DNA of 64,000 nucleotides, taken from positions 2,336,001 through 2,400,000 of the forward strand of contig CAVWGN010000001.1 of assembly GCA_963754655.1 (NCBI GenBank), given 5' to 3'. The position numbers and the translations under genes are program-made. The DNA comes from an uncultured Chlamydiae bacterium (GTDB lineage: Bacteria > Chlamydiota > Chlamydiia > Chlamydiales > Parachlamydiaceae). Shown here piece after piece: positions 48,354 through 49,000 of the stretch. Below the pieces are notes generated by a model that made no database searches, had not been told where the DNA came from, and saw only the letters and a program-made list of their open reading frames with translations. Numbering within the stretch: the first letter of the stretch is position 1; every line of letters begins with the position of its first letter.

Positions 48354-49000
48354 CTAGTACTCAACCACACTAGTTTTTGCCTATTGGAGTGCTTGAAAGC
48401 CCCGGGATTAGGAGGAGATGATTCTCTTGTAGTCCTTCAGACTACATGACGAGGGCTAATCTAACCCAGGGCGATGCCCTGGGCTAGGGTGTTAATTTTG
48501 TGCAAAAAATGAGCTTTATTTTTCACAATAATTGGCATAGTTGAATAGAAGGTCGCATGTTTATGCCGTCCTTTCAGGACTCGATGTCTTTTTGATAGAA
48601 CCCAGGCCTCCGCTTCGCTGCGACCTGGGCTGTAACATGACGGCCCTTCAGGCCTTAACAAAAAGATGATTTAGGGACTATAGAAGAGGGACTTAAACAT
48701 CTCTTGTTAAGGCCTGAAGGGCCGTCATGTTACAGCCCAGGTCGCAGCGAAGCGGAGGCCTGGGTTCTATCAACAAGACATCGAGTCCTGAAAGGACGGC
48801 ATAAACATGCGACCTTCTATTCAACTATGCCAATTATTGTGAAAAATAAAGCTCATTTTTTGCACAAAATTAACACCCTAGCCCAGGGGTAGATTGGTCC
48901 TCTTCATGTAGAGTCTGAAGGACTACAAGAGAATCATCTCGTCCGAACCGGGGCTTTGAAGCACTCCCACTAAACAAAAACTAATGTGGTTGAGTACTAG
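48354..49000. mobile_element. Uninterrupted 647-bp palindromic MITE/REPIN-like element, locus C
   Basis: CTAGTACTCAACCACA...TGTGGTTGAGTACTAG; ~300-bp inverted arms, near-perfect in the inner ~180 bp; one 82-bp central unit (48642-48723). Confidence 0.88.

What the first reader, a model, noticed from the sequence alone, without database searches (positions are those of the whole stretch)
48354..49000. Giant nested palindromic element family (MITE shell + REP hairpins + REPIN-like core)
Seen: a 647-bp non-coding fold-back bounded by CTAG-TACTCAACCACA. Each arm stacks small hairpins (CCCAGG..CCTGGG, GTCCT-GAA-AGGAC, GTAGTC-CTTCA-GACTAC, CCCAGGGC-GAT-GCCCTGGG) around a central 82-bp unit. Related composites occur at 2470-6489, 32290-36652 and 55526-57767, giving four loci in 64 kb, all essentially intergenic. 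Known: REP/REPIN elements are mobilised by RAYT (HUH tyrosine) transposases, and MITEs by DDE transposases recognising their IRs. No RAYT is visible in this window. Inference: a hierarchical non-autonomous element that combines both architectures and is unusually large. It may be undescribed in chlamydiae.
Basis: partly seen in the sequence, partly recalled or inferred. Interest (0 to 1): 0.8.

Follow-up and report, generated by a model that had tools for sequence, protein, structure and literature searches.

The report
Five-layer nested mobile DNA palindrome
This 647-base mirror-image stretch is a real, gene-free stack of five repeat layers: two are hairpin sets that also flank small single-strand-DNA transposase genes, three are likely borrowed transposon ends (one matching a widespread transposase family that Pfam and NCBIfam do not model), and its two halves are likely kept alike by copying one onto the other.

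Summary
The fold-back is real (z -48; 185-nt inner arms 99% complementary) and belongs to about 300 related loci in this genome. It is a stack of five layers, not one element. From outside in: S shell with CTAG duplication (IS630-like ends); C, a three-hairpin set that flanks Y1 (HUH) genes elsewhere; B shell with a 9-bp CCCNGGG target; F shell with 8-bp duplication; R doublet, a second three-hairpin set flanking another Y1 gene and scoring 36.4 bits on Rfam Acido-Lenti-1 (cut-off 37). The Y1 genes carry the motifs of Quentin's IS200-like subclass 1.2, not RAYT. B's ends match full insertion sequences in relatives that encode a DDE transposase family without a Pfam or NCBIfam model (3,655 clusters; Hermes/ISCth4-like predicted fold); intact members here hit the same target. 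Arms show arm-to-arm copying: 10 locus-private variants lie on both arms. No cognate transposase was found in this genome for B or F, and only a short end match for S. This scan has reported the same system several times on other DNA of this genome. New variant of a known kind.

The parts
48354..48357 (.). Left CTAG, duplicated target of the S shell
   Evidence: 34 of 48 S pairs have CTAG on both sides; for three pairs inserted in repeats, 27 of 29 paralogous empty sites hold one CTAG
48358..48407 (+). S shell, left end (MITE-like; its centre carries a CCCCGGG target into which inner layers insert)
   Evidence: 125 exact 11-mer ends genome-wide; cargo varies, lengths 91-4012 bp; shares CTAGTACT with an intact IS630 at G000:C1:954916-956053
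48408..48484 (+). C layer, left: hairpin H1 (48429-48445) and H2 (48465-48483) of the second three-hairpin family; its H3 and spacer are lost here
   Evidence: Same hairpins flank Y1 genes L003 and L005 and relatives L106, L109; 13 C doublets without B exist
48485..48533 (+). B shell, left end (TAGGGTGTT...), non-autonomous end of an unmodelled DDE insertion-sequence family (inferred)
   Evidence: 182 ends, target (G/A)CCCNGGG(C/T); TAGGGTGTT ends on full elements L135, L137, L138
48534..48559 (+). F shell, left end (GGCATRGTT...)
   Evidence: Free 295-470 bp copies; 11 of 18 free pairs have a 7/8 or 8/8 direct repeat
48560..48661 (+). R module, left: H1 (48568-48580), H2 (48601-48629), H3 (48642-48654)
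   Evidence: Flanks Y1 gene L004 in inverted orientation; Acido-Lenti-1 36.4 bits; compensatory changes in all three stems
48662..48703 (.). 42-nt central spacer; with the two H3 hairpins it forms the 82-bp unit that is tandemly amplified elsewhere
48704..48805 (-). R module, right (one mismatch to the left copy)
48806..48831 (-). F shell, right end
48832..48880 (-). B shell, right end
48881..48946 (-). C layer, right: half of H2 and a damaged H1
48947..48996 (-). S shell, right end
48997..49000 (.). Right CTAG; the valS start codon follows at 49033
   Evidence: the orthologous site has no element in G002 and G003
2470..6489 (.). Related composite: S-B-F-R pieces interrupted by an IS481 (about 2852-4116) and by a split copy of the unmodelled-family IS (4157-6026)
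32290..36652 (.). Related composite: S-C parent with B inserted in the left H2 and the C core kept; interrupted by an IS481 (about 32888-34703) and a DUF772 IS (34771-36234)
55526..57767 (.). Related composite: F-type unit without B or S, with a DUF772 IS (55578-57041) in H1 and a tandem array of the 82-bp unit (57110-57650)

Best explanation
The element is a gene-free stack of five repeat layers that likely formed by successive site-preferring transpositions into hairpin repeats, followed by likely arm-to-arm copying. The two hairpin sets (R and C) are the inverted flanks of small HUH/Y1 transposase genes of the IS200-like subclass 1.2 (shown); they are likely those enzymes' single-strand DNA recognition signals and old REPIN-like doublets (inferred). 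An R doublet acquired F ends (298 bp, 8-bp duplication) and then B ends (396 bp). B ends are likely moved in trans by a DDE transposase family that duplicates 9 bp at (G/A)CCCNGGG(C/T). In this 39% G+C genome that word lies mostly in hairpin stems and shell centres, which likely explains the nesting. Here B landed in hairpin H2 of a pre-existing S-C element (CTAG-duplicating, likely IS630-type ends around a C doublet). The old C core was then lost, likely by deletion between the two non-equivalent CCCWGGG half-sites. Template switching or conversion between arms likely keeps the inner arms identical and can mirror a one-sided neighbour into a new pair of ends. No host function is needed.
For: Layers occur independently with their own duplications: S, B, F. 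Intermediates exist: 13 C doublets without B, 7 with B inserted and the core kept (one in this window), 10 with the core replaced. R flanks Y1 gene L004 on both sides and C flanks L003/L005; in relatives, R-type flanks go with L108, L110 and L103, C-type with L106 and L109, matching protein clades. All three R stems keep pairing in 252 of 252 cells, with two-sided changes in 5 pairs, 0 of 500 shuffles. An intact 1846-bp IS of this genome has exact 9-bp duplications in 9 of 10 end pairs, at the same target consensus as B; homologues in relatives end in TAGGGTGTT like B (L135, L137, L138). The protein has conserved D, D, DxxH and E; its model (pLDDT 93.5) is closest to Hermes, ISCth4 and P-element transposases. 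Arm copying: in 69 of 79 B elements with both arms intact, 10 locus-private substitutions are on both arms and 29 on one; arms are identical in 29 of 69 loci but in 3% of between-locus pairs. Orthologous valS sites in G002 and G003 lack the element.
Against: No transposase gene with B ends was found in this genome: the profile finds only the 1846-bp family and one 1786-bp member, both with other ends. B's flanks are more often mirror images (32 of 81 within one mismatch over 9 bp) than direct repeats (16 of 81), and an empty site was found for only 14 of 81 pairs (9 bp in 8). S shares only CTAGTACT with the IS630. F has no identified partner: no IS1595 here, and the four IS1595 loci from relatives showed no F-like ends. 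Some subclass 1.2 genes have hairpin flanks on one side only or none (L006, L007, L102, L104). Nothing here shows Y1 binding or cleavage. Arm identity could be inflated by assembly or polishing; no read or contig spanning the palindrome was available. The target enrichment in repeats is partly circular because duplications add copies.
Confidence: 0.72

Rival explanations
1. The whole composite is a large REPIN spread by the Y1 (HUH) enzymes, and the shells are passengers.
For: Eight Y1 matches beyond the IS200/IS605 gene; cognate hairpins flank them; shell-less doublets and arrays are common in G016, G017 and G020; the 82-bp tandem arrays join at the H3 hairpin.
Against: The mobile boundaries here are the shell ends, each with its own duplication. 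Of 263 R anchors, 238 sit in an F-type context and most of the other 25 are F variants or Y1 gene 3' ends. No GT[AG]G foot on R.
Confidence: 0.1
2. The R module is a functional small RNA (Acido-Lenti-1 type) or transcript-level element, and the palindrome is kept for regulation, here of valS.
For: Rfam match at 36.4 bits; covariation with G-U type wobbles on one strand; the element sits 32 nt before the valS start codon, right after a stretch conserved in G002 that looks promoter-like (the promoter reading is my inference).
Against: Covariation fits single-strand DNA hairpins equally well. About 300 copies sit at unrelated sites and flank Y1 genes. Congeners lack the insertion. The match is just under the family cut-off.
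Confidence: 0.1
3. The long perfect arms are a fold-back or polishing artefact of assembly.
For: No record spans the palindrome. Repeats of this kind can be homogenised by assemblers (general knowledge).
Against: Outer arms are only 87-88% alike. Target duplications match empty sites. Contigs from two other runs carry near-identical pieces, other flanks beyond the S end, and a joined S-B form (one study). Doublets occur in independently assembled relatives.
Confidence: 0.08

Closest known systems
REPINs / BIMEs with RAYT (TnpA-REP); Bertels and Rainey 2011, PMC3116915 (passages) and PMC3337134 (part 1 of 3)
   Same: Inverted hairpin doublets with a spacer, hundreds of extragenic copies, tandem arrays, a cognate Y1 gene flanked by the same repeat, family-specific pairing of gene and repeat.
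   Different: The unit is a roughly 100-nt three-hairpin module, not a 20-40 nt REP; R has no GT[AG]G foot; the Y1 genes fail the RAYT model; in this genome the doublets are wrapped in shells with target duplications.
TnpA-Y1 subclass 1.2; Quentin et al. 2018, PMC6006769 (abstract, section 12, section 15 part 1)
   Same: DH[IV]H, WQ and Y---Q--HH motifs, about 150 aa, several divergent copies per genome.
   Different: The paper's table lists this subclass with no REP and mostly in Cyanobacteria and Bacteroidetes; here its genes have inverted three-hairpin flanks that are highly repeated. Supplements not read.
Acido-Lenti-1 RNA motif, Rfam RF01687; Weinberg et al. 2010, PMC2864571 (Table 1 row only)
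   Same: H2-H3 of the R module align over model positions 1-46 at 36.4 bits.
   Different: Below the gathering score of 37; here it is a repeated flank of a transposase gene and has a third hairpin. The supplement describing the motif was not read.
Prokaryotic Mutator-like DDE transposases (IS256, ISH6, ISLre2, ISKra4 groups); Guerillot et al. 2014, PMC3942029 (passages)
   Same: DDE triad with a C/D-xx-H motif and helical insertion; two-ORF layout with a possible -1 frameshift as in the ISMich2 group; fold match to ISCth4.
   Different: No Pfam or NCBIfam hit for 8 members; about 198 aa between the second D and the E against an insert of 99-138 aa in the paper; ends T(A/G)GG(G/A)TG and a CCCNGGG target in this genome. 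ISfinder could not be searched.
REP dimers inside longer palindromes; Di Nocera et al. 2013, PMC3733652 (passages)
   Same: REP dimers inserted in long palindromic shells are described for Anabaena variabilis and Halothiobacillus neapolitanus.
   Different: One shell there; here three shells with separate duplications and two hairpin families.

Membership tests
REP/REPIN-RAYT (class 2 TnpA-REP) | Inverted doublet of palindromic repeats, many extragenic copies | tested here: met
REP/REPIN-RAYT (class 2 TnpA-REP) | Cognate Y1 gene flanked by the same repeat | tested here: met
   L004 for R, L003/L005 for C
REP/REPIN-RAYT (class 2 TnpA-REP) | Protein has class 2 motif Y---NP / passes the RAYT model | tested here: not met
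   Y---Q--HH; NF047646 22.6 and 22.5 bits against cut-off 80
REP/REPIN-RAYT (class 2 TnpA-REP) | GT[AG]G tetranucleotide at the foot of the hairpin | tested here: not met
   None in R on either strand; in C, GTAG is part of the H1 stem
REP/REPIN-RAYT (class 2 TnpA-REP) | Single-strand binding and cleavage at a defined dinucleotide | not testable with these tools
   needs purified protein (assay type in PMC8266576, passages)
TnpA-Y1 subclass 1.2 | DH[IV]H, WQ, Y---Q--HH, about 148 aa | tested here: met
   L002-L005 match; L007 has DHLH and L006 lacks one H; assigned by motif, not with the paper's HMMs
MITE (S shell) | Terminal inverted repeats, target duplication, no coding capacity | tested here: met
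IS630-derived MITE (S shell) | Ends shared with an autonomous IS630 | tested here: inconclusive
   Only CTAGTACT shared with the intact IS630; TA versus CTAG duplication cannot be told apart
ISAs1-derived MITE (B shell) | CAGGG(C/A)..GCAT-type ends of ISAs1 elements | tested here: not met
   30 ISAs1 loci examined; none with a resolved end pair has B-like ends beyond AGGG
MITE of the unmodelled DDE family (B shell) | Same ends, duplication length and target as autonomous members | tested here: met
   TAGGGTGTT ends on L135, L137, L138; 9-bp duplication on L135, L138; same target consensus as the 1846-bp member here; the exact partner is not in this genome
IS1595-derived MITE (F shell) | 8-bp duplication and ends shared with an IS1595 (GGC start and 8 bp are recalled features) | tested here: inconclusive
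   8-bp duplication met in 11 of 18; no IS1595 here; 3 of 121 genomes have one, none shown to have F-like ends
Mutator-like (p-MULT) transposases | DDE triad, C/D-xx-H, helical insertion of 99-138 aa | tested here: inconclusive
   Triad and DxxH conserved, fold fits, but spacing is longer and no library model matches
Acido-Lenti-1 RNA (RF01687) | Score at or above gathering threshold 37 | tested here: not met
   36.4 bits, E 4e-5
Acido-Lenti-1 RNA (RF01687) | Expressed as a discrete RNA | not testable with these tools
   no RNA holder listed

The most novel reading that the evidence does not exclude
Subclass 1.2 Y1 transposases form an unrecognised REPtron class whose signal is a three-hairpin DNA module, catalogued so far as the orphan Acido-Lenti-1 'RNA'. 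In this lineage an uncatalogued, widespread DDE insertion-sequence family targets those hairpins, and arm-to-arm mirror copying turns one-sided neighbours into new transposon ends, so new non-autonomous elements are built layer by layer in a cell lacking SbcCD.
Probability: 0.45. Interest if true: 0.75.

Novelty: new variant of a known kind. Interest (0 to 1): 0.55.

Why it matters
It gives a concrete substrate for a Y1 subclass described as having no REP partner, and a testable DNA role for an orphan Rfam motif. It exposes a large transposase family (3,655 clusters at 50% identity) that Pfam and NCBIfam miss, with defined ends, a 9-bp duplication and a sequence target. It is also a natural record of how long bacterial palindromes arise and are kept: 38 fold-backs with arms of 150 bp or more in one genome, with private variants mirrored on both arms. 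It does not point to a new host function, and the same system has been reported by this scan from other windows of the genome.

Tried and rejected
ISAs1 as source of B: rejected. IS701 as partner of S: 0 matches here. IS1595 as partner of F: not found here, unresolved. Autonomous element with S ends: 0 exact matches in genome contigs, 0 of 200 other genomes of the order, 1 metagenome match with no transposase beside it. Exact B end in genome contigs: 1 match, no transposase beside it. One 647-bp family copied as a unit: rejected, the four full-length forms differ in outer arms and junctions. Single-sequence fold of the transposase was unusable (pLDDT 34.8); sequence searches of solved structures gave nothing significant; the Atlas gave no answer; the wide structural search had not finished at submission. 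Viral contigs gave one weak hit. No RNA holder listed. Contigs of X1 and X2 do not cover the unique flanks or span the palindrome. Promoter and terminator scan was uninformative. Loss of SbcCD as the cause of the expansion: no sbcC over cut-off here and no sbcD in 0 of 5 genomes, including three congeners with few or no matches, so at most permissive. Literature: seven searches listed no paper describing this family or hairpin flanks for subclass 1.2; the library lacks most subscription papers, and supplements were not read.

Full report
Observation. The stretch 48354-49000 folds back on itself over its whole length. The inner 185-nt arms are 99% complementary around a 42-nt spacer, and the DNA folding energy is -346.7 kcal/mol against -71 for shuffles. 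The window is G000:C1:2336001-2400000. BLASTN with the element finds 298 loci on C1 and 5 on C2. A module map gives 369 loci with many architectures; 0.1% of their bases lie in long ORFs.

Layer S. There are 125 exact TACTCAACCAC ends, preceded by C, T, A, G in 116, 121, 122 and 117 cases, with no conservation further out. Of 48 end pairs under 5 kb, 34 have CTAG on both sides. Eleven pairs returned a paralogous match; the three informative ones with five or more empty sites show a single CTAG in 27 of 29. S carries several unrelated cargoes. An intact IS630 (335 aa, 206.6 bits against cut-off 100) has CTAG-TACT at both ends, but the likeness stops after 8 letters. S was not found in 200 other genomes of the order.

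Layers R and C. The genome has 9 Y1_Tnp matches: one IS200/IS605 gene, six full-length genes with DH[VIL]H, WQ and Y---Q--HH-type motifs, and two fragments. These motifs define subclass 1.2 in Quentin et al., who list no REP for it (PMC6006769). L004 lies between two inverted copies of R; L003 and L005 are flanked by C hairpins. I examined 20 Y1 loci (7 own, 13 from four relatives; 3 gave no ORF under my filter). R-type flanks go with L004, L108, L110 and L103, C-type with L003, L005, L106 and L109, and the groups follow the protein tree. Kin share labels, so this is concordance, not proof of co-evolution, and several genes have one flank or none. Across 14 R-type modules all 252 cells of the three stems pair, 5 pairs change on both sides, and no shuffle of 500 reaches this; the structure was drawn from these sequences, so the control is lenient. 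R scores 36.4 bits on Acido-Lenti-1, just under the cut-off. R or C cores match in 15 of 40 relatives; in the loci read from G016, G017 and G020 the doublets have other spacers and flanks and none of the shells. The cores are therefore likely old and the shells local.

Layer F. Inside B, the R doublet is bounded by GGCATRGTT ends. Of 107 end pairs, 70 lie in the standard B context, 13 in B variants, 6 in another shell and 18 are free; 11 of the 18 have a 7/8 or 8/8 direct repeat. No partner was found.

Layer B. There are 182 ends and 81 pairs, typically 396 bp, at a (G/A)CCCNGGG(C/T) target. Empty sites were found for 14 pairs and imply 9 bp in 8 of them; flanks are more often mirrored than directly repeated. 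ISAs1 was tested and rejected. The genome holds an 1846-bp IS with TGGGATGAGAAAAC ends and exact 9-bp duplications in 9 of 10 pairs, at the same target; the tenth is the split copy in this window. Its protein has relatives in 11 of 250 genomes of the phylum. Of 18 such loci, 14 gave an end pair with a duplication; L135 and L138 end in TAGGGTGTT with 9-bp duplications, and L137 has TAGGGTGTTAATTTT at both ends. Eight members have no significant Pfam or NCBIfam match, yet the profile finds 3,655 clusters, and the 6 named members in 3 of 10 looked-up clusters are called hypothetical. D68, D142, D166-x-x-H169 and E340 are conserved. The model (pLDDT 93.5) is closest to Hermes, ISCth4 and P-element transposases, so this is a predicted DDE enzyme with a helical insertion, akin to the Mutator-like groups of PMC3942029 (passages). 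A second member, 1786 bp, sits in a C hairpin and shares ends with another abundant small repeat. No member with B ends is left in this genome.

Assembly of this copy. C doublets come in three states: 13 without B, 7 with B inserted and the core kept, 10 with the core replaced. Seven of the 10 have B joined to C on both sides. Five of these are symmetric and two, including this one, use different half-sites of H2, which fits a deletion better than a simple mirror copy (inference). The four full-length forms differ in their outer arms, so they are not recent copies of one unit.

Arm copying. In 69 B elements with both 170-nt arms intact (of 79), 10 substitutions seen at one locus only are present on both arms, against 29 on one arm. 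Arms are identical within 29 of 69 loci but in 3% of between-locus pairs. Mirror symmetry runs 37-118 nt beyond B's ends at 13 of 81 loci, and a one-sided B end beside an F unit exists at G000:C1:1280920. Template switching between inverted repeats is a known route to this (search listing only, PMC8604942 and PMC8794818). An assembly effect cannot be excluded without long reads. No sbcC over cut-off and no sbcD were found, but congeners also lack sbcD.

Landing pad. All 22 ends of the DUF772 IS lie in R hairpin H1, and 15 of 16 IS481 ends lie at one site between H2 and H3. CCCNGGG words are concentrated in the 4.4% of the genome covered by these repeats: 178 of 293 and 164 of 193 (partly circular).

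Context and reality. The element lies 32 nt upstream of valS. G002 and G003 have the same upstream gene and no element; G001 has a different neighbour. Contigs of runs X1 and X2 (one study) hold near-identical pieces with other flanks and a joined S-B form, but none spans the palindrome.

Verdict. A real, layered, non-autonomous mobile structure. It works like REPIN cores carried by MITE shells, but fails REP/RAYT membership on the protein class and the GTAG foot. Earlier notes of this scan on the same genome reached a similar reading and gave me the subclass 1.2, orphan-RNA and mirror-building leads, which I then tested. The tie of the B shell to an unmodelled DDE family did not come up in two look-ups of those notes, which show only short excerpts. 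Interest 0.55; new variant of a known kind.

Noticed in passing
G000:C1:69957-71802 (L129) and copies; window 4157-6026: Insertion-sequence family with no Pfam or NCBIfam model: short coiled-coil-like ORF followed by a 440-470 aa DDE ORF with an A-run at the junction (possible -1 frameshift; fused 530-560 aa forms exist among the hits), 9-bp duplication, CCCNGGG target.
   Followed up: yes
G000:C1:426687-428472: Second intact member of that family, inserted in a C hairpin; its ends match a small repeat with about 145 ends in the genome.
   Followed up: partly
window 34771-36234 and 55578-57041: 1464-bp DDE_Tnp_1/DUF772 IS whose 22 ends all lie in the H1 hairpin of the R module; below the cut-off of every NCBIfam IS model it touches.
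   Followed up: partly
window 2852-4116 and 32888-34703: Two different IS481 elements insert at the same site between H2 and H3 of R (15 of 16 ends); the second carries an extra short ORF.
   Followed up: partly
window 48330-49035; L126: The element sits right after a stretch conserved in G002 that looks like a -10 element and 32 nt before valS, so an essential gene may be transcribed through or from a very stable fold-back.
   Followed up: partly
L002 (G000:C1:2939279-2939758) and L007 (G000:C1:2429353-2429802): Other subclass 1.2 Y1 genes have their own hairpin flanks; the L007 flank is the core of the 490-bp S-shell elements.
   Followed up: partly
G000:C1:234235, 631232, 960673, 973182, 1797372, 2325322, 2793940: Repeated unit made of an R module joined to the last codons of a Y1 gene.
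   Followed up: no
window 1-15400: Tandem cluster of paralogous genes with 108-bp (36-aa) TPR-like repeats and shared upstream 20-mer repeats.
   Followed up: no
G000 whole genome: No sbcC over cut-off and no sbcD match; sbcD also not found in G001, G002, G003 and G020.
   Followed up: partly
window 36633-36652: The S shell supplies the last codons and stop of the 171-aa ORF at 36633-37148 (-).
   Followed up: no
L065:2201-2223: The first 23 letters of the S end occur in an unrelated metagenome contig with cyanobacteria-like neighbours (my impression), followed by a different small repeat.
   Followed up: partly
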